A stretch of 16,022 nt of DNA from a virus (taxonomy: Duplodnaviria > Heunggongvirae > Uroviricota > Caudoviricetes): IMG/VR virus record IMGVR_UViG_2526164666_000036, positions 1 through 16,022 of that record; one strand, 5' to 3'. Every line of letters starts with the position of its first letter. The stretch's first letter is position 1. Position numbers and translations under genes: made by a program. Positions 676 to 16,022 of this stretch are shown here, in pieces. The notes under the pieces were generated by a model. That model was given only the letters and a program-made list of their open reading frames with translations, did no database searches and was not told the origin of the DNA.

Positions 676-1058
676 CGAATTTCTCCCGTGTACAGGAACA
701 GAGTTAAAAAGCCGGAACCGGAATCAAATTACAGGATGGCCATCTGCCAGTGGCTGGTCGTAAAAAAAGGCCACGCCATGCGCAGCCGGAAATAAAGGGA
801 TAACGATGATAGTTTGAGAAAAACAGAAACGACACTTTTGTGGCAAAGCATGGTGCCGGGTGCCTCCCGGTGAGTTCAGCCCGGTGCCACTAAACCCTCG
901 TCATTCTCGTTTTGATAATCAGAGATTATACCGTCACCAGTCGCCCCTCCGCTCAGGGGGATTCACCATGCAGTTTTTTTCTAACAAATTCTCATCCGGG
1001 CAGACAACATTCAACTGACTTAATTGTGAGGTATGTAACATTCCTGTTGAACGGATAC

Positions 1059-3844: not shown

Positions 3845-3912
3845 AAGTGCGGGTGCGTTGAGGATGCCTGATTCATCAGAGGTGGCGAGGGATTTCTCCC
3901 TCGCCGGGTCTC

Positions 3913-4068
3913 TTACTCCTCAGGTTCGTAAGCTGTGAAGACAGCGACCTCCGTCTGGCCGGTTCGGATTCGTACCTCGCAGAGGTCTTTCCTCGTTACC
4001 AGTGCCGTCACTATGACGGTTAAACAGATGACGATCAGGGCGATTAACATCGCCTTTTGCTGCTTCAT
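3913..4068 (-). CDS. hokD: Hok-family type I toxin HokD (RelF), 51 aa
   Basis: Translation MKQQKAMLIALIVICLTVIVTALVTRKDLCEVRIRTGQTEVAVFTAYEPEE matches HokD as I recall it; AGGAG 9 nt upstream of ATG at 4068. The track ORF carries a 19-codon in-frame upstream extension. Confidence 0.9.
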   Translation of the reverse strand: MKQQKAMLIALIVICLTVIVTALVTRKDLCEVRIRTGQTEVAVFTAYEPEE

Positions 4069-4244
4069 AGCCTGCTTCTCCTTGCCTTTCGGCACGTAAG
4101 AGGCTAACCTACATGTGCAAGTCATAGATATGGCCTCAGATTAATGTTAAGCGTCTTGCCGGACGCGTAATGTTAACTGGGGCTTTTCTCTATCTGCCTT
4201 TTGGTGTTCATGCCTGAGACAGATAGCCTCAAGCACCCGCAGCA

Positions 4245-6195: not shown

Positions 6196-6469
6196 TGGTT
6201 TCTTTCTCCTGTCTGAACATCATGATCATCAGGCCATCTTTTGTTGCTACCCTGACTGTTGTTCCTGGCTCTATGCTGCCAAGGTCAAATGCGTCATAAA
6301 ATTCATTCAACGCTTTCTGGTGTCTCTCCTGTTTGCGTCGCTTTTCCCACTGCTTCAGAAAAACAGAGGTCACCCACTTCCCCGCGCTGAACATGATGTA
6401 AAACCAACCAAGCAGGGCCAACCCCGTGTTGAGGGCTGTATCAATCGTTATTGTTGTGTCGATATTCAC
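6188..6469 (-). CDS. Hypothetical single-pass membrane protein, 93 aa
   Basis: GTG start at 6469 overlapping the upstream stop (GTGA), preceded by AGGAGA; hydrophobic segment GLALLGWFYIMFSAG. Confidence 0.5.
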   Translation of the reverse strand: MNIDTTITIDTALNTGLALLGWFYIMFSAGKWVTSVFLKQWEKRRKQERHQKALNEFYDAFDLGSIEPGTTVRVATKDGLMIMMFRQEKETSE

Positions 6470-6762
6470 TGTGTCTTCTCCTGGAAAATAACTGCATGCC
6501 CCAGCTTCTCCGCCAGTGCCAGTTCCGCCTTAGCGCCTGCTGACCGCTGCCAGCCTTTCAGCATGTAAATCGCATCCACACAACGAATCATTGCCATGCA
6601 AATATCCATGTAGTGTGGCTGTGTCAGCCCGTCCGGAAGTACTGCCGGGGTTAAGACGGTATGCCCTTCCCGTTTCAGTTCCTCTTCCGCCTTGTGAAAC
6701 GCCTCACGGTTGAAATTTTCATATCCCGTCATTGGACCGGCAATATAAACTCTCACCCTCAC
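6466..6762 (-). CDS. DUF4406-like protein (nucleoside deoxyribosyltransferase-like fold), ~98 aa
   Basis: VYIAGPMTG...LTPAV...LKGWQRSAGAKAELALA pattern; GTG at 6762 overlaps the upstream stop (GTGA). The track's longer start at 6831 would overlap the upstream gene by 72 nt. Confidence 0.55.
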   Translation of the reverse strand: MRVRVYIAGPMTGYENFNREAFHKAEEELKREGHTVLTPAVLPDGLTQPHYMDICMAMIRCVDAIYMLKGWQRSAGAKAELALAEKLGHAVIFQEKTQ

Positions 6763-7151
6763 TCCATCACCTCCTGAAAGTTTCCCCGATAGAACGCCAG
6801 CACACGCTGCATAACTTCGCTCTGGCGGCACTCACGACAAATTATGTTCTGCCGTCTGTTGTAACGACGTATTTCTCCGTCAGGTAACTTTCGAATCAGT
6901 GTCGGGTCAGCAGCCTTCTCCGGTGTCTTACGCCATACGCGATACGCCTGCTCTGATGGAAATACCCCGCAACCAGAGAGCCAGACATCACCACTGGCCG
7001 CAAGCGCACCAGATAAACGACGAATAGCGGTCTTACTGACACCCGTTTTATCTGCCAGTTGTCGAAAAGTTTCTCGTCCGCTCAGGCGCACGAATTCCAC
7101 AATGCGCGCCTTCACTTCTTCCCGCTCTTCTGGTGTAAATTCTTTTGCCAT
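6759..7151 (-). CDS. Hypothetical HTH-containing phage protein, ~130 aa
   Basis: ATG at 7151 preceded by GGAGG 5 nt upstream (the track start at 7166 is TTG); helix-turn-helix-like stretch TFRQLADKTGVSKTAIRRL. Confidence 0.55.
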   Translation of the reverse strand: MAKEFTPEEREEVKARIVEFVRLSGRETFRQLADKTGVSKTAIRRLSGALAASGDVWLSGCGVFPSEQAYRVWRKTPEKAADPTLIRKLPDGEIRRYNRRQNIICRECRQSEVMQRVLAFYRGNFQEVME

Positions 7152-7966: not shown

Positions 7967-8707
7967 TCAGTTCCTGTGCTGGCTGACGTTCGGACGCCAG
8001 CTCTCCCAGTTAAACGTCACCCAGCGACCACCGTTCATGGACATGCGGTCCATCACCCGCTCGCCGAGAAGTGTATTCATCGCTGCATGGTTAAGATTTG
8101 TCAGCATCCCCACACTGAGTAACGATGCCGTTCTGCGGTCAACAATCTGATTCAGCGTGACCTGCTCATTACGCGTATCCCGTTGCATGCCAATTTCATC
8201 CAGTACCAGCAGGTCAACGCCACACAATCCCTGCAAAAATTTTTCGCCCGAGTTTTTGTTGTCGTAGCTGCCATGTAACGCCAGCATCACATCCGCCACT
8301 GTTATCACAATCACACTGCGACCTTTCGCCAGAAGGTGGTTGCCAATAGCCGCCGCCAGGTGGTTTTTTCCTGTGCCAGGCCTGCCACTGAAAACAAAAT
8401 TCGTACAGCCGCCTTCCAGCTCTGCCGCAATGGATTTCGCCTGACTCAGGGCATGGCGCTGACCATCGTTCTGCACCCGGTAGTTACCGAACGTACACTT
8501 CCGGTGAAGCGGCTGGATACCGGAGCGGTTAATGATTTTTTCAACCCGCGTCTGATGATTCAGACGATTAACCTCCTCGCTTCGCTTACGCCCTTCAGCA
8601 AGCTGCCATTCCCGCCACTCCGCCACCGTACGGTACGGAGGGATTGCATCCTGCGGCACAAATCTGCTGACTCTTGCCAGAACACCACCTGACGTAATGT
8701 TTTTCAT
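7967..8707 (-). CDS. DnaC-like replicative helicase loader (YdaV-like / phage P analogue), 246 aa
   Basis: Walker [16 protein letters not shown] and Walker B LLVLDEIG; immediately downstream of the O-like initiator gene. Confidence 0.85.
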
Positions 8708-11180: not shown

Positions 11181-11333
11181 ATGGATACTATCGATCTTGG
11201 CAACAACGAATCTCTGGTATGTGGCGTGTTTCCCAATCAGGACGGCACGTTTACCGCGATGACGTATACCAGAAGCAAAACGTTTAAAACGGAAGCTGGC
11301 GCGCGTCGCTGGTTAGCAAGAAACTCTGACTGA
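11181..11333 (+). CDS. Small protein YdfA/YdaF-like, 50 aa
   Basis: ATG at 11181 with GAGG 5 nt upstream; MDTIDLGNNESLV... resembles Qin YdfA as I recall it; first gene after the repressor. Confidence 0.55.
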   Translation: MDTIDLGNNESLVCGVFPNQDGTFTAMTYTRSKTFKTEAGARRWLARNSD

Positions 11334-11344
11334 TGAGGTTGACG

Positions 11345-11983
11345 ATGGAATTTAAAGATTTACCTCCTTCAATCCAGGAGATTGCAGCACACACACTTCG
11401 TCATCGTCTGAACGAACTTGAATTGGAATCGGTAACGAAAAAAGACACTGATAATATGGCTCGTAATGTGCGCGATGCGTTTACCGGATTGTATTTCTGT
11501 GCGTCTATAAATAAACACGACTCAGAGAGTGTGGCAAATAAAATTGCAGAAACGACAGCGCAAAACATCAATACGAAACCAACGGAAGAAGAAATTGATC
11601 AGTTTGCTCATGATGCTGGTTTAAAAAACAAGAAAGAAAAATCGCCATATGCGGGGAACATGTTTGTTTATGACAATCTCATCAGAATTCGTGGCGAAAT
11701 TCCGGCGGAATACCTGGCAAGAGTCCATCAGGCATTGCTTAAAAATTTGGAAACAGAATTATTTGATGGCAACACTAACGGTTTCTTCATGGTATCAGGC
11801 CTTGAGAAAGACTGGGATGCAGAAAAACGCTGGAATGTTGCTACATGGTTATTCAGTAACAGAGCCGCTGCACTGGAAGCTTCGGCATGTATTTGCGGCC
11901 TGTTCTTAACAGACCACAAATATAATCTGGATGTGTACAGTTATATTTACGCTGAACACGGTCCACTCTGGATTGACTGGTAA
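11345..11983 (+). CDS. Hypothetical protein of unknown function, 212 aa
   Basis: ATG at 11345 with GAGG 7 nt upstream (alternative ATG at 11333 overlapping the upstream stop); no motif I recognise. Confidence 0.6.
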   Translation: MEFKDLPPSIQEIAAHTLRHRLNELELESVTKKDTDNMARNVRDAFTGLYFCASINKHDSESVANKIAETTAQNINTKPTEEEIDQFAHDAGLKNKKEKSPYAGNMFVYDNLIRIRGEIPAEYLARVHQALLKNLETELFDGNTNGFFMVSGLEKDWDAEKRWNVATWLFSNRAAALEASACICGLFLTDHKYNLDVYSYIYAEHGPLWIDW

Positions 11984-12531
11984 TTATAAGGAAACACCAG
12001 CAGGGCCGCGGCGACCAACAGAACGATTAAAATCAATAATGCCATTATAAAGGACATTATTTAATTTATCGTCGAATGCTGATTCTGTGAGCCTCAACTC
12101 TGAATGAGTTTTTAATAACCCTGATTGCCTGAGTTGATTTACCAGGCATTCAATCTGTTTTTCAATAAGCGGATTTCTTTTTTGTTTGGCATTTTATCCT
12201 CCATTGAGGTTCTGGGTTAAAAATGGAGACCAACACGCTGTCACGTGTGGTCGTGCGCCGGACACGGATAAGAATCCGGTACTGACAGTTTACTGAAAGG
12301 ATATTTCCCTGAAAAGTCAGTGCATAACGCGAAAGCGTACGGCGAAGCTCTTTCCCTTAGAAGGCTTGTCGTTAGATTTCTTCGAACGTGCGCTTCCGGT
12401 TGTGGCACTCCGCGAAATGGCGCGGCGGTAAGTATGGCGGGGTTATTCCTTCCCCAGTTGAGGACACCGGGTTGTCAGGTTGACCATACGCTTAAGTGAC
12501 AACCCCGCTACAACGCCCTCTGTTATCAATA

Positions 12532-12589
12532 TTCTGGTGACATTTGGCGGTATCAGTTTTACTCCGTGACTGCTCTGCCGCCCTTTTTT
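12532..12589 (+). ncRNA. dicF: DicF small regulatory RNA
   Basis: TTCTGGTGACATTTGGCGGTATCAGTTTTACTCCGTGACTGCTCTGCCGCCCTTTTTT matches DicF as I recall it, apart from one or two changes near the 5' end; ends in its own GC-hairpin plus U-tract terminator; lies just upstream of dicB. Confidence 0.85.
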
Positions 12590-12759
12590 AAAAGTGAATT
12601 TTGTGATGCGGTGAATGCGGCTCAGCGCACGCGGAACAGTTAAAACCAAAAACAGTGTTATGGGTGGATTCTCTGTATCCGGCGTTAATTGTTAACTGGT
12701 TAACGTCACCTGGAGGCACCAGGCACCGCATCACAAAATTCATTGTTGAGGACGCGATA

Positions 12760-12948
12760 ATGGAAAAGTTATCATGTAATGCCAGCACGTCTGAACTTCG
12801 TTTCGAAATTGGCGTTATCACTGGAGACAAAACATTTATTGAAGACGCCATTAAGCAGAGAAAACTCGAGCAGGACCTGTTAAATGAAGTATGCATTCCT
12901 TCAATGCTGGCTCGTCTGGACCTGCTGCAAAAAGGATATAAACAATGA
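12760..12948 (+). CDS. dicB: Cell division inhibitor DicB, 62 aa
   Basis: ATG at 12760 with GAGGA upstream; shares FEIGV, EDAI, SMLARL blocks with K-12 DicB; directly downstream of DicF. Confidence 0.8.
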   Translation: MEKLSCNASTSELRFEIGVITGDKTFIEDAIKQRKLEQDLLNEVCIPSMLARLDLLQKGYKQ

Positions 12949-13136
12949 ATACAACATTTGCACTCGTTCTGACAGTTTATCTTGTTTCCGGCGAATCTCT
13001 TGAGCTGGTGACTGGCTTATACGGTTCAATGAAAGAATGCATGGCTGCAGCAGCAGAACAAAAAATTCCCGGTAACTGTTATCCGGTAGATAAAACTACT
13101 CACACTAATAATAACGAAATACCGGCAGGACTTTAA
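12945..13136 (+). CDS. ydfD: YdfD-like small membrane/lysis protein, 63 aa
   Basis: ATG overlaps the dicB stop (ATGA); AAGGA SD; hydrophobic N-terminus TTFALVLTVYLVSG; same position as ydfD in Qin. Confidence 0.65.
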   Translation: MNTTFALVLTVYLVSGESLELVTGLYGSMKECMAAAAEQKIPGNCYPVDKTTHTNNNEIPAGL

Positions 13137-13229
13137 AACAGCACCGTAATTAATATCCGGTTTCATTTTTATATGCCAGCAATGGCAGGGATTTGTTCAC
13201 CCTTAAATCTGTAATGAGGTTAAAACAAA

Positions 13230-15701
13230 ATGAGTAAAGTCTTTATTTGCGCCGCCATTCCGGACGAACAGGCAATAAAAGAAGAGGGCGCAGTTGCTGT
13301 AGCCACTGCCATTGAAGCCGGTGATGAACGCCGCGCCCGTGCCAAATTTACCTGGCAATTCCTGGAGCAATATCCTGCTGCTCAGGACTGCGCTTATAAA
13401 TTTCTTGTCTGCGAAGATAAACCTGGCATGCCCCGCCCTGCTATCGACTCCTGGGATACCGAATATATGCAGGAAAACCGCTGGGATGAGGAATCCGCTT
13501 CCTTTATTCCGGTCGAACCAGAATCCGATCCTATTAACGTCAATTTTGACAAGCTGTCCCTTGAAGTACAGAACGCGGTCCTGGTTAAGTTCGGTACATG
13601 TGAAAACATCACCGTTGATATGGCGATTGACGCGCAGGAATTACTGCAAGAAGACGTGGCTACCTTTGACGGACATATCGTTGAAGCACTGATGAAAACG
13701 CCTGAAATTAACGCTATGTATCCGGAACGCAAACTGTTCGCTATCGGATGGGTTAAACACAAATGTAAGCCGGGTACCAAATGGCCCGAAATTCAGGCTG
13801 AATTACGTAACTGGAAAAAACGGCAGGACGCAGAGCGCAAAGAGACTGGAAAATACACGTCTGTTGTTGATCTTGCCCGCGCCAAAGCCAACCGACAGCA
13901 CACTGAAAACCCAGCAGAAAAAATCCCTCCTGTAACTGCCGCCATTCATCGCGAATACAAGCAGACATGGAAAACCCTGGACAGGGAGCTGGCCTACTAT
14001 CTCTGGCCTGGTGATGCGGATGCCGGAAACATTGACGGCAGCATCCTTCGCTGGGCTAAAAATGAAGTTATCGCCAGAGATCGCGAAGACTGGAAGCGCA
14101 TCTCCGCATCAATGCGCAAACAACCTGATGCGCTTCGCTACAGCCGCCAGACTATTTTTGGCCTTGTCCGTGAACGTCCGATCGACATTCACAAAGACCC
14201 TGTGGCACTGAACAAATACATTACTGAATACCTGACTACAAAGGGCGTGTTTGAAGATGAAGGAAGAAATCAGAGCGCAACTGATACTCTCTCGTCGCCA
14301 GTACCAGAAACTGATGCAGTGGAAACGGCAATTCAGGACAACGAAAAAACCGAATGCAAAGTGGAAGTCGAATCATCTGTAGAGCGTGAGGGGCCGTTCT
14401 ACTTCCTCTTCAGCGACAAGGATGGCGAAAAATACGGTCGTGCAAACAAACTTTCTGGTCTGAATAAGGCGCTGGCTGCAGGGGCTACTGAAATCACGAA
14501 AGAAGAATATTTTGCCCGCAAAAACGGTACATACTCAGGTTCACAACAAAATACTGGTGCATCTGACACGATCGCACAACCGGAGCCGGTAAAAGTTACC
14601 GCTGACGAAGTAAACAAAATTATGCAGGCAGCCAATATCAGCCAGCCTGACGCCGATAAGTTGCTTGCTGTATCACGTGGTGAATTTGTTGCAGGGATTA
14701 GCGACCCGAATGATCCGAAATGGGTGAAGGAGATTGAAACCCGCGATTCAGTGAATCAGAACCAGCAAGAAACGGAACAGAACGACCAGAAAGCGGAACA
14801 AAACAGCCCAAATGCGTTACAAAACGAGCCAGAAACGAAACAATCCGAACCAGTAGTGCAACAGGAACCGGAAAAAGTCTGCACCGCCTGCGGTCAGAGC
14901 GGTGGCGGCAACTGCCCCGATTGTGGCGCTGTCATGGGCAACGCAACATACCAGGAAACATTCGATGAAGAGAATCAGGTTGAAGCTCAGGAGAATGATC
15001 CGGAGGAAATGGAAGGCGCTGAACATCCACACAAGGAGAACACTGGCGGCAATCAGCATCACGCCAGCGATAGTGAAACTGGCGAGGCGGCAGATCCCTT
15101 AATTAAGGTGAATGGTCATCACAATCTCACATCCACCAGCAGAGCGGGGATTCATCTGATGATCGACATTGAAACCATGGGAAAAAATCCCAATGCCGCG
15201 ATTATCTCAATAGGCGCAATATTTTTCGATCCACAAACCGGAGATATGGGACCGGAATTTAGCAAGACCATCGATCTGGATACTGCTGGCGGAGTTATTG
15301 ATCGTGACGTCATTAAATGGTGGCTGAAGCAATCACGTGAAGCGCAGTCTGCCATTCTGACCGATGAAATCCCGTTAGATGATGCACTACTGCAATTGCG
15401 GGAATTTATCGCCGAAAACTCCGGTGAATTTTTTGTTCAGGTCTGGGGAAATGGAGCCAACTTCGACAACGTGATTTTACGCCGTTCATACGAACGGCAG
15501 GGGATCCCCTGCCCCTGGCACTACCACAACGATCGCGATGTACGCACAATCGTTGAGCTAGGGAAAGCCATAGACTTCGATGCCAGAACAGCTATCCCAT
15601 TCGAAGGTGAGCGCCACAATGCACTTGATGACGCCCGTTACCAGGCAAAATACGTTTCAGCTATCTGGCAAAAACTGATCCCGAGTCAGGCTGATTTTTA
15701 A
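13230..15701 (+). CDS. Large prophage protein (YdfE-like N-terminus) with internal zinc ribbon and C-terminal DEDDh (DnaQ-like) 3'-5' exonuclease domain, 823 aa
   Basis: C-terminal motifs MIDIETMG (Exo I), GNGANFDNVIL (Exo II), HNALDDARYQA (Exo III); CTACG...CPDCG ribbon around 14878-14930; Q/E-rich low-complexity linker around 14755-14875. Confidence 0.8.
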   Translation: MSKVFICAAIPDEQAIKEEGAVAVATAIEAGDERRARAKFTWQFLEQYPAAQDCAYKFLVCEDKPGMPRPAIDSWDTEYMQENRWDEESASFIPVEPESDPINVNFDKLSLEVQNAVLVKFGTCENITVDMAIDAQELLQEDVATFDGHIVEALMKTPEINAMYPERKLFAIGWVKHKCKPGTKWPEIQAELRNWKKRQDAERKETGKYTSVVDLARAKANRQHTENPAEKIPPVTAAIHREYKQTWKTLDRELAYYLWPGDADAGNIDGSILRWAKNEVIARDREDWKRISASMRKQPDALRYSRQTIFGLVRERPIDIHKDPVALNKYITEYLTTKGVFEDEGRNQSATDTLSSPVPETDAVETAIQDNEKTECKVEVESSVEREGPFYFLFSDKDGEKYGRANKLSGLNKALAAGATEITKEEYFARKNGTYSGSQQNTGASDTIAQPEPVKVTADEVNKIMQAANISQPDADKLLAVSRGEFVAGISDPNDPKWVKEIETRDSVNQNQQETEQNDQKAEQNSPNALQNEPETKQSEPVVQQEPEKVCTACGQSGGGNCPDCGAVMGNATYQETFDEENQVEAQENDPEEMEGAEHPHKENTGGNQHHASDSETGEAADPLIKVNGHHNLTSTSRAGIHLMIDIETMGKNPNAAIISIGAIFFDPQTGDMGPEFSKTIDLDTAGGVIDRDVIKWWLKQSREAQSAILTDEIPLDDALLQLREFIAENSGEFFVQVWGNGANFDNVILRRSYERQGIPCPWHYHNDRDVRTIVELGKAIDFDARTAIPFEGERHNALDDARYQAKYVSAIWQKLIPSQADF

Positions 15702-15770
15702 TGTTCAACCATCGCCGGTTGTGACTGGTATTCTGCAACCGGCCCTCATCTGATGTAAGAGATAAAAGCG

Positions 15771-16022
15771 ATGAGCGAAGTAATCATGATTGTCTCTCCC
15801 GGTAAATGGGTATCCGAAGAGCAGTTAATTGCGCTGAAAGGAATAAAAAAAGGTACGTTAAAAAAGGCCCGGGAAAAATCGTTTATGGAAGGAAGGGAAT
15901 ATAAGCATGTCGCTCATGACGGTATGCCATGGGATAACAGTCCATGCTTTTACAACCTGGAAGAAATTGATCGCTGGATTGAGCGCCAGGCATCTGCAAG
16001 ACCAAGACGTCATCTTGCTTGA
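15771..16022 (+). CDS. Excisionase-like small DNA-binding protein, 83 aa
   Basis: Small basic protein at the prophage end downstream of the recombination-region gene; size, position and YNLEEIDRW-type C-terminus fit Xis/AlpA-like proteins. Assignment is positional. Confidence 0.5.
   Translation: MSEVIMIVSPGKWVSEEQLIALKGIKKGTLKKAREKSFMEGREYKHVAHDGMPWDNSPCFYNLEEIDRWIERQASARPRRHLA

What the first reader, a model, noticed from the sequence alone, without database searches (positions are those of the whole stretch)
13230..15701. Intact 823-aa protein with a DEDDh exonuclease C-terminus and no partner recombinase
The N-terminal part resembles what I recall of K-12 YdfE, which is a fragment interrupted by IS2, so this may be the full-length ancestor. 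The C-terminal ~180 aa carry all three DnaQ-like exonuclease motifs, which is not the PD-(D/E)XK fold of RecE or lambda Exo. No recT/bet/erf-like gene is adjacent. The architecture (long N-terminal region, Q/E-rich linker, zinc ribbon, DEDDh nuclease) suggests a function other than classical phage recombination.
Basis: partly seen in the sequence, partly recalled or inferred. Interest (0 to 1): 0.5.

Follow-up and report, generated by a model that had tools for sequence, protein, structure and literature searches.

The report
RecE-like prophage protein with swapped DEDDh exonuclease
This is the intact form of the K-12 pseudogene ydfE: a very common lambdoid-prophage early gene with a RecE-type front end, a DexA-type 3'-5' exonuclease in place of RecE's own nuclease, and no annealing partner; it is catalogued but has never been studied experimentally.

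Summary
Window 13230-15701 (+) is an intact 823-aa ORF. Residues 1-256 are 84% identical to K-12 YdfE, which IS2E truncates. Residues 642-813 match Pfam PF16473 (Rv2179c-like DEDDh exonuclease, E 1.8e-66), with D646, E648, D746, H796 and D801 in place. A CxxC-x7-CxxC zinc ribbon sits at C551-C565, inside acidic, Q/N-rich linkers.

Similarity stops exactly where RecE's PD-(D/E)XK domain begins, so this is a RecE-family scaffold with a swapped nuclease.

Relatives combine two N-terminal types with DEDDh, PD-(D/E)XK or other C-termini. In the contexts read, a RecT gene follows the two PD-(D/E)XK forms and none of the DEDDh forms.

The gene is the last one of the PL-like dicBF operon, before xis-int.

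The closest characterised relatives are DNA exonucleases: T4 DexA, and the anti-T4 protein EcD (NAR 2025). The W152 residue reported as needed for 5hmC recognition is His here.

The DEDDh module is in 75% of complete E. coli genomes, against 32% for RecE's nuclease. All modules are under purifying selection.

Most likely it is a DNA 3'-5' exonuclease made during lytic growth. Its biological role is unknown. The architecture is already in databases, so interest is moderate.

The parts
13230..15701 (+). Complete 823-aa gene: the intact ydfE-type 'exonuclease', identical to WP_000048585.1
   Evidence: ORF list and translation. It is 100% identical in STEC genomes, where it is annotated 'exonuclease'. 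PHROG 2082 matches full length. Precomputed Pfam architecture is YdfE_N + YdfE_C + Rv2179c-like.
13216..13219 (+). GAGG ribosome-binding site, 10 nt before the ATG
   Evidence: Read directly from the sequence.
13230..13997 (+). aa 1-256: the part that survives as K-12 YdfE. It contains a confidently modelled alpha/beta plus helical domain (aa 1-205).
   Evidence: 84% identity to K-12 ydfE. AF2 pLDDT is about 90 for aa 1-205. dN/dS is 0.12-0.13 against the Tritos and mEp460 copies. No informative fold match was found.
14064..15104 (+). aa 279-625: region homologous to RecE residues 294-591. It holds two small folded domains (about aa 245-340 and 390-435) and then the Q/N/E-rich linkers.
   Evidence: BLASTP against K-12 RecE, E 2e-64. 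The NCBIfam RecE model matches aa 246-625. DNA identity to recE is confined to aa 475-625. AF2 model.
14880..14924 (+). Zinc ribbon: C551-x2-C554-x7-C562-x2-C565
   Evidence: Cysteine positions. The motif CxACGQxGGxNCPDCG is shared with RecE.
15153..15668 (+). aa 642-813: DEDDh 3'-5' exonuclease domain of the DexA / EcD / Rv2179c family (PF16473). Catalytic residues are D646, E648, D746, H796 and D801.
   Evidence: Pfam E 1.8e-66. Invariant catalytic columns in alignment A2. Best match among solved structures is 8KEL, which matches the T4 DexA sequence. dN/dS is 0.16-0.18.
12532..13136 (+). Upstream genes of the same PL-like operon: DicF sRNA (12532-12583), dicB (ends at 12948) and the ydfD-like DUF1482 gene (12945-13136)
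   Evidence: Rfam DicF, 77 bits. RefSeq annotation of the identical locus. Operon structure in K-12 from PMC10448788.
15771..16022 (+). Excisionase gene directly downstream. Integrase and the host gene rspB follow outside the window.
   Evidence: Annotation of the identical locus L001.

Best explanation
The gene encodes a modular early-lytic protein of Qin/mEp460-type lambdoid phages.

It has three parts. The first is a roughly 450-aa scaffold (Pfam YdfE_N and YdfE_C) whose second half is homologous to the dispensable N-terminal region of RecE. The second is a RecE-type acidic, Q/N-rich linker that carries a four-cysteine zinc ribbon. The third is a DexA/EcD-type DEDDh domain, sitting where RecE carries its PD-(D/E)XK 5'-3' nuclease.

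I infer that the C-terminal domain is a Mg2+-dependent, two-metal 3'-5' exonuclease acting on DNA 3' ends. I also infer that the scaffold and zinc ribbon deliver or tether it, as the equivalent region presumably does for RecE.

The gene is transcribed from the DicA-repressed, PL-like dicB promoter together with DicF, DicB and YdfD. It would therefore be made after prophage derepression, not in the quiescent lysogen.

It works without a single-strand annealing protein. It is unlikely to be a RecET or Red-type recombinase. More likely it degrades or trims 3'-ended linear DNA during lytic growth. Candidate substrates are host DNA for takeover or scavenging (as with T4 DexA), competitor phage DNA, or recombination and replication intermediates that are then handled by host RecA and the phage RusA.

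What is shown: the domain composition, the catalytic residues, the homology to RecE and DexA, the synteny, the absence of a partner, and purifying selection. What is inferred: DNA as substrate, the polarity, the time of expression for this copy, and the biological role.
For: Domain and catalytic residues:
- PF16473 matches at E 1.8e-66, and the DEDDh residues are invariant.
- T4 DexA and the EcD-like protein belong to the same Pfam family.
- Both are DNA 3'-5' exonucleases according to PMC12153337.
- The window domain is 38% identical to EcD-like and 28% to DexA.
- DexA is the only solved relative found by sequence. No chain named Rv2179c was found even at E up to 10.

Domain swap:
- RecE homology covers aa 279-625 and stops at the nuclease boundary.
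- K-12 RecE is PF06630 plus a PDDEXK domain at 615-850.
- P0124 is a RecE-type N-terminus fused to this DEDDh domain, and P0138 is a YdfE-type N-terminus fused to PDDEXK.

The partner follows the nuclease:
- P0138 is followed by an overlapping RecT-family gene (PF03837, E 2e-36), as is K-12 recE.
- No DEDDh locus examined has one: the window locus L001, plus L004, L005, L016-L018, L019, L021 and L025-L028.

Operon and function:
- The dicBF operon is transcribed from a PL-like promoter repressed by DicA and includes ydfE (PMC10448788).
- The gene is the same length in the functional phages mEp460 and Tritos, with dN/dS of 0.12-0.38 in every module.
Against: - No biochemical data exist for this protein or for any long form.
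- The Pfam family is named after an exoribonuclease, so RNA is not excluded as substrate.
- In K-12, northern blots did not detect a transcript reaching ydfE (PMC10448788), and a conserved hairpin with a T-run precedes the gene. Expression may therefore need antitermination or another signal.
- The partner association rests on a dozen loci read by hand, with only two PD-(D/E)XK contexts. It is not a census.
Confidence: 0.6

Rival explanations
1. It is a prophage-encoded anti-phage defence nuclease of the HREX/EcD kind. It would selectively digest 5hmC-modified DNA of infecting T-even phages and spare host DNA.
For: EcD, a stand-alone PF16473 protein of E. coli, protected cells against T4 and cut only 5hmC DNA (PMC12153337). 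I recovered an EcD-like gene through the paper's forward primer. It is 38% identical to the window domain. The other gene products of the operon already include a phage-exclusion function, DicB (title and abstract of PMC6832061). The module is present in 75% of E. coli genomes.
Against: - DexA W152, which the paper reports as required for cutting T4 DNA, is conserved in EcD-like but is His766 here.
- DexA D169 aligns with Ala here.
- The Asp equivalent to DexA D90, whose loss defines the 5hmC-only dimer state, is retained as D718.
- The gene lies in the DicA-repressed PL-like operon, not in a moron with its own promoter. No promoter signal above chance was found.
- EcD-like itself sits in a prophage early region.
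Confidence: 0.15
2. It is an RNA or small-nucleotide exonuclease. It would trim RNA 3' ends (for example host or operon transcripts such as the DicF precursor), or degrade nanoRNA or signalling oligonucleotides as an anti-defence enzyme. This is what the first reader hinted at.
For: Pfam names PF16473 an exoribonuclease domain after Rv2179c. DEDDh enzymes often accept both RNA and DNA. The gene shares an operon with a processed sRNA.
Against: - The nearest characterised relatives by sequence are DNA exonucleases (PMC12153337).
- The domain occupies the slot of a dsDNA-end nuclease on a RecE-type scaffold.
- DicF processing is attributed to RNase III and RNase E.
- PADLOC gave only a weak generic DEDDh hit.
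Confidence: 0.15
3. It is a true recombination nuclease. It would cooperate with host RecA, SSB and RusA, or with an unrecognised annealing protein, through its RecE-like scaffold. It would be a non-classical but still recombinational replacement for RecE.
For: It occupies the recE/exo position of the early-left operon and shares the RecE central region. The same YdfE scaffold carries a PDDEXK nuclease with RecT in P0138. A RusA resolvase is encoded in the window at 2044-2403.
Against: A 3'-5' polarity destroys the 3' tails that annealing proteins and RecA use (established knowledge of Red and RecET). No annealing protein was found in the window, or in the annotation of the whole Tritos genome.
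Confidence: 0.1

Closest known systems
RecE (exodeoxyribonuclease VIII) of the Rac prophage
   Same: - Same position in the early-left operon of a lambdoid prophage, upstream of xis-int.
- Homologous central region: window aa 279-625 against RecE 294-591.
- Identical type of zinc ribbon and acidic linker.
- Similar length: 823 aa against 866 aa.
   Different: - The first ~250 residues are a different module (YdfE_N, not PF06630).
- The nuclease is DEDDh 3'-5', not PD-(D/E)XK 5'-3'.
- No RecT gene follows.
- The score on the RecE equivalog model is 286 bits against a cutoff of 1269.
T4 DexA (exonuclease A; PDB 8KEL and 8KEN)
   Same: Same Pfam family (PF16473), the same DEDDh catalytic residues, and a phage-encoded early gene. 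It is the only solved structure detectable by sequence (E 3e-7).
   Different: DexA is a stand-alone 227-aa protein with extra loops and 28% identity. Its W152 and D169 (5hmC recognition) are not conserved in the window protein. The window domain is the C-terminus of a large scaffold.
EcD / 'HREX' exonuclease of E. coli (PMC12153337)
   Same: PF16473 DEDDh domain, 38% identity, encoded in a temperate-phage early region in E. coli. Shown experimentally to be a DNA exonuclease.
   Different: EcD is a stand-alone protein of 189-193 aa. It lacks the D90-equivalent Asp and keeps the W152-equivalent Trp. The window protein does the reverse (D718 kept, H766). No scaffold or zinc ribbon.
Rv2179c of Mycobacterium tuberculosis (founder of PF16473)
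   Same: Same Pfam family and DEDDh chemistry.
   Different: It is a stand-alone bacterial protein described as an exoribonuclease (Pfam name; details from my own knowledge). It is too distant to be found by phmmer in the PDB set.
K-12 YdfE (b1577 pseudogene, Qin prophage)
   Same: It is the same gene. There is 84% identity over 256 aa, the same neighbours (dicF, dicB, ydfD) and the same integration site next to rspB.
   Different: The K-12 copy is cut by IS2E after codon 256. It has lost the RecE-like region, the zinc ribbon and the nuclease.

Membership tests
PF16473 Rv2179c-like / DexA-like DEDDh exonucleases | Profile match above the curated cutoff over the whole domain | tested here: met
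   223.6 bits against a cutoff of 27, profile positions 2-177 of 177, aa 642-813.
PF16473 Rv2179c-like / DexA-like DEDDh exonucleases | Complete DEDDh catalytic set (Exo I D-x-E, Exo II D, Exo III H-x4-D) | tested here: met
   D646, E648, D746, H796 and D801 are invariant columns in alignment A2, which includes T4 DexA and EcD-like.
PF16473 Rv2179c-like / DexA-like DEDDh exonucleases | Metal-dependent 3'-5' exonuclease activity | not testable with these tools
   Needs purified protein.
RecE / exodeoxyribonuclease VIII (NCBIfam NF007259 equivalog) | Full-length match above the equivalog cutoff | tested here: not met
   285.9 bits against a cutoff of 1269. Only model positions 271-602 of 877 match.
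RecE / exodeoxyribonuclease VIII | C-terminal PD-(D/E)XK (DUF3799) 5'-3' nuclease domain | tested here: not met
   No PF12684 hit in the window protein. K-12 RecE has it at aa 615-850.
RecE / exodeoxyribonuclease VIII | Adjacent RecT-family annealing protein | tested here: not met
   Downstream are xis and int. No annealing protein in the window by PHROGs. None in 11 further DEDDh loci.
RecE / exodeoxyribonuclease VIII | Homologous central region with zinc ribbon and acidic linker | tested here: met
   BLASTP E 2e-64, aa 279-625 against RecE 294-591. DNA identity is 76% over aa 475-625.
HREX / EcD-type 5hmC-specific defence exonuclease (PMC12153337) | Trp equivalent to DexA W152 (5hmC stacking) | tested here: not met
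   The aligned residue is His766. EcD-like keeps Trp.
HREX / EcD-type 5hmC-specific defence exonuclease (PMC12153337) | Acidic residue equivalent to DexA D169 | tested here: inconclusive
   The aligned residue is Ala, with an Asp two or three positions later. The alignment in this loop is gapped.
HREX / EcD-type 5hmC-specific defence exonuclease (PMC12153337) | Loss of the D90-equivalent Asp (dimer-only state) | tested here: not met
   D718 aligns with DexA D90. EcD-like has A78 and a gap there.
HREX / EcD-type 5hmC-specific defence exonuclease (PMC12153337) | Protection against T4 and selectivity for 5hmC DNA | not testable with these tools
   Needs plaque and nuclease assays.
YdfE family (Pfam PF27430 YdfE_N, PF27432 YdfE_C) | Match to the YdfE_N and YdfE_C families and to K-12 YdfE | tested here: met
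   Precomputed Pfam hits for the exact protein. 84% identity to K-12 ydfE. These two models are not in the local Pfam copy, so no scores were seen.

The most novel reading that the evidence does not exclude
The YdfE/RecE N-terminal region is a general delivery platform of temperate phages, onto which interchangeable effector domains are grafted: a PD-(D/E)XK nuclease with RecT, a DEDDh nuclease alone, and at least two further C-termini of unknown function. On this reading the DEDDh version is the commonest prophage nuclease of E. coli. It would carry out a so far undescribed, annealase-independent task at DNA ends. Examples would be destroying 3'-ended DNA of the host or of rival phages, or disarming a DNA-based defence, once the prophage switches on.
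Probability: 0.2. Interest if true: 0.6.

Novelty: new variant of a known kind. Interest (0 to 1): 0.4.

Why it matters
The N-terminal two thirds of RecE have had no known function for decades. A review states only that the domain is of unknown function and that full-length RecE improves linear-linear recombineering (PMC11611040).

The same scaffold carries a nuclease of opposite polarity with no RecT partner. That form is present in 75% of complete E. coli genomes, against 32% for RecE's own nuclease. This gives a natural domain-swap series for asking what the scaffold does.

It also places the recently proposed DexA/EcD 'HREX' idea in context. The tested EcD-like gene and these long forms are both temperate-phage early genes, and the long forms probably account for many of the E. 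coli DexA homologues. The key 5hmC residue W152 is not conserved in the form studied here.

The finding explains the K-12 pseudogene ydfE. In practice the gene is abundant in STEC prophages, with up to 7 copies of the nuclease module per genome, so its activity could affect prophage induction and recombination among Stx phages.

Tried and rejected
- **Central-region homologue search.** The search for homologous proteins with aa 440-639 returned almost only short partial E. coli entries. It showed little beyond the region being shared by entries named 'exonuclease VIII' and '3'-5' exoribonuclease'.
- **N-terminal homologue search.** The same tool with aa 1-450 failed twice. I used the representative search instead.
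- **Locating EcD.** The reverse primer found only unrelated chance hits in genome contigs and viral contigs and nothing in the window. The forward primer located the EcD-like gene.
- **Defence-system models.** PADLOC gave only a weak generic DEDDh match.
- **Own promoter or terminator.** The scan of 11900-16022 was not above shuffled expectation.
- **Literature.** Searches for ydfE, Rv2179c, RecE with DEDDh, and lambdoid/DicB/RecE found no functional study of this protein.
- **Decaying remnant.** Rejected. The gene has the same length in the functional phages Tritos and mEp460, and dN/dS is 0.12-0.38.
Full report
**1. What is there**

Window 13230-15701 (+) is an uninterrupted ATG-initiated ORF of 823 codons. 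A GAGG ribosome-binding site lies at 13216-13219. The identical protein (WP_000048585.1, named 'exonuclease') is annotated in O103, O145 and O157 STEC chromosomes. It occurs in 3055 blocks of the public assembly index.

The window is the early region of a lambdoid prophage integrated beside rspB, the Qin site. It runs from a partial esterase gene through Q, RusA, DUF968/HNH, hok/sok, O-like and DnaC-like replication genes and the DicA/DicC-type immunity region. It then continues with ydfA-like genes, DicF, dicB, a ydfD-like gene, this gene and xis. Integrase and rspB follow just outside the window.

**2.

- **C-terminal domain.** Residues 642-813 match Pfam PF16473 over the whole profile (E 1.8e-66, 223.6 bits, cutoff 27). 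In an alignment with T4 DexA, an EcD-like protein and five stand-alone relatives, the DEDDh residues D646, E648, D746, H796 and D801 are invariant.
- **YdfE.** Residues 1-256 are 84% identical, without gaps, to the K-12 ydfE pseudogene. The DNA alignment diverges where IS2E begins in K-12. The gene order around ydfE in K-12 (dicF, dicB, ydfD, then IS2E, intQ, rspB) corresponds to the window locus.
- **Zinc ribbon and linkers.** The ribbon is C551-x2-C554-x7-C562-x2-C565. The flanking segments are Q/N- and D/E-rich.
- **No partner.** PHROG scans of 20 other window ORFs find no RecT, Bet, Erf or Sak family protein. Downstream are xis, int and a host gene.

All four observations are confirmed.

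**3.

The NCBIfam RecE model matches aa 246-625, corresponding to model positions 271-602 of 877. BLASTP against K-12 RecE aligns aa 279-625 with RecE 294-591 (E 2e-64). Similarity is very high from about aa 470 onwards, including the zinc ribbon and the acidic tail. It ends at 'ADP(L/V)I', immediately before the nuclease domains. At the DNA level, similarity to recE is confined to codons 475-625, at 76% identity.

K-12 RecE is PF06630 (aa 2-178) plus the PD-(D/E)XK domain DUF3799 (aa 615-850). [quoted passage not shown]

**4. The family is combinatorial**

A search of 1.84 billion cluster representatives found 11,656 relatives at E <= 1e-3. Most are stand-alone proteins of 180-200 aa. Several are long forms. 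Their domain content, is:

| Representatives | N-terminal type | C-terminal type |
|---|---|---|
| P0124, P0127, P0135, P0139 | RecE-type (PF06630) | DEDDh (PF16473) |
| Window protein, P0121 | YdfE-type | DEDDh (PF16473) |
| P0138 | YdfE-type | PD-(D/E)XK (DUF3799) |
| P0134, P0140, P0145, P0169, P0199 | YdfE-type | Third type (PHROG 7838) |
| P0130 | YdfE-type | Fourth type, unknown |

P0124 looks like K-12 RecE up to the junction and like the window protein after it. Newer Pfam releases already describe the front part as YdfE_N (PF27430) and YdfE_C (PF27432).

**5. The annealing partner follows the nuclease, not the scaffold**

Both PD-(D/E)XK forms examined have a RecT gene.
- P0138 (YdfE scaffold with PDDEXK) is followed by an overlapping RecT-family gene (PF03837, E 2e-36).
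- K-12 recE is followed by recT.

None of the DEDDh forms examined has one.
- P0124 (RecE-type N-terminus with DEDDh) lies in a Rac-like context: kilR, ydaE, the exonuclease, a DUF4224 gene, then integrase.
- The same holds for the window locus, phage vB_EcoM-606R7, the functional phage mEp460_ev081, three further chromosomal places, and four E. coli loci taken at even steps down the hit list. Those four are integrated at ompW (two of them), potC and rspB.
- The complete 46-kb genome of phage Tritos carries the 823-aa gene and has no annotated annealing protein anywhere.

This is a hand-read sample of about a dozen loci, not a census.

**6. Abundance and constraint**

DNA of the DEDDh module (window 15150-15701) is found in 4069 of 5426 complete E. 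coli genomes, at 8101 places and up to 7 per genome. DNA of the RecE PD-(D/E)XK module is found in 1736 genomes.

Against the Tritos and mEp460 copies, which have identical length, Nei-Gojobori dN/dS is as follows.

| Region (aa) | dN/dS |
|---|---|
| 1-256 | 0.12-0.13 |
| 257-450 | 0.33-0.38 |
| 451-640 | 0.25-0.34 |
| 641-823 | 0.16-0.18 |

All modules are therefore maintained by selection. The very different dS values between segments fit mosaic exchange.

**7. What the nuclease probably does**

The only solved structures detectable by sequence are 8KEL and 8KEN (E 3e-7). Their sequence matches T4 DexA, and 8KEN is the S87A/D90A mutant.

A 2025 paper shows that DexA is a 3'-5' DNA exonuclease that switches between a tetramer, which cuts unmodified DNA, and a dimer, which cuts 5hmC DNA. 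It also shows that an E. coli homologue, EcD, cuts only 5hmC DNA and protects against T4. The authors call this strategy 'HREX' (PMC12153337).

I located an EcD-like gene using the forward primer in the paper's supplement. It is a stand-alone gene of 189-193 aa, has A78 as the paper describes, and belongs to PF16473. It is 38% identical to the window domain. It lies in a prophage early region next to a DNA methyltransferase, regulators and an integrase.

Mapping the paper's key residues gives this:

| DexA residue | Reported role | EcD-like | Window protein |
|---|---|---|---|
| W152 | 5hmC recognition | Trp | His766 |
| D169 | 5hmC recognition | Ser, with Glu one position earlier | Ala |
| D90 | Tetramer formation | Ala78 / gap | Asp718 |

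By the paper's own criteria the window domain is not of the 5hmC-only type.

Two arguments favour DNA as the substrate. The nearest characterised relatives are DNases, and the domain replaces a dsDNA-end nuclease on the RecE scaffold. I therefore infer a 3'-5' DNA exonuclease. RNA is not excluded, because the family is named after an exoribonuclease.

**8. When it is made**

In K-12 the dicBF operon (ydfABC, dicF, dicB, ydfD, ydfE) is transcribed from dicBp. This is a PL-like promoter repressed by DicA and relieved by the antirepressor Rem, or spontaneously in a subpopulation. The paper describes YdfD as the only characterised product other than DicF and DicB. It cites mEp460_ev081 as a functional phage with the same arrangement (PMC10448788).

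The same paper did not detect a transcript extending into ydfE. A hairpin with a T-run at 13174-13197 is identical in K-12 and in the window. I found no promoter signal above chance near the gene. By this synteny and the K-12 data, expression would follow prophage derepression, not occur in the quiescent lysogen. That argues against a standing defence role.

**9. The scaffold**

**10. Verdict**

The thing is a RecE-family scaffold carrying a DexA-type DEDDh exonuclease, without an annealing partner, at the recE/exo position of Qin/mEp460-type phages.

Its most likely activity is 3'-5' degradation of DNA ends during lytic development (confidence about 0.6 for the activity). The biological purpose is open: host DNA breakdown, exclusion of other phages, or trimming of intermediates.

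It is a variant of known kinds, and its architecture is already recorded in Pfam, PHROGs and RefSeq. I found no experimental work on it. Interest is moderate. The most useful aspects are the natural domain-swap series and the fact that this form, not RecET, is the common one in E. coli.

Noticed in passing
window 12532-12583 (+): DicF sRNA gene (Rfam RF00039, 77 bits, full length) upstream of dicB. Its flanks are nearly identical to K-12 Qin.
   Followed up: partly
window 13174-13197 (+): A short GC hairpin followed by a T-run lies between the ydfD-like gene and the exonuclease start. It is identical in K-12. K-12 northern blots did not detect a transcript reaching ydfE (PMC10448788), so this may be a terminator or attenuator that gates exonuclease expression. 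Terminator-like sites in the region are not above chance.
   Followed up: partly
window 3911-4238 (-): hokD toxin ORF with its sok antisense RNA (Rfam RF01794, 115 bits, at 4063-4238).
   Followed up: no
window 812-1000 (-): STnc100 sRNA (Rfam RF02076, 133.7 bits), between the esterase gene and the Q antiterminator gene.
   Followed up: no
L013 4362-10446 (also L008-L012): An EcD-like gene, matching the 'bacterial' anti-T4 exonuclease of PMC12153337, lies in IMG/VR prophage contigs. It sits in an early region with an integrase, repressor-like regulators and a DNA methyltransferase. This suggests EcD is itself a temperate-phage gene, not a host gene.
   Followed up: partly
window 6466-6828 (-) and L013 4362-4709 (-): The same PHROG 355 family (nucleoside 2-deoxyribosyltransferase-like, DUF4406) occurs in the window prophage and near the EcD-like gene. 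Two different prophage types therefore each carry a PF16473 nuclease and this gene.
   Followed up: no
[not shown]
   Followed up: partly
P0130 (L022 4001-6109): The YdfE-type scaffold carries a fourth C-terminus of unknown function (PHROG 26058). Its last ~48 residues recur at the ends of several entries named 'exodeoxyribonuclease VIII, partial'.
   Followed up: no
window 11333-11983 (+): A 216-aa ORF of unknown function (PHROG 2151) occupies the place of ydfB and ydfC in the early-left operon. Only its first ~50-75 residues resemble other families.
   Followed up: no
E. coli genome collection: The DEDDh module is in 4069 of 5426 complete E. coli genomes (8101 places, up to 7 per genome). 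The RecE PD-(D/E)XK module is in 1736 genomes.
   Followed up: yes
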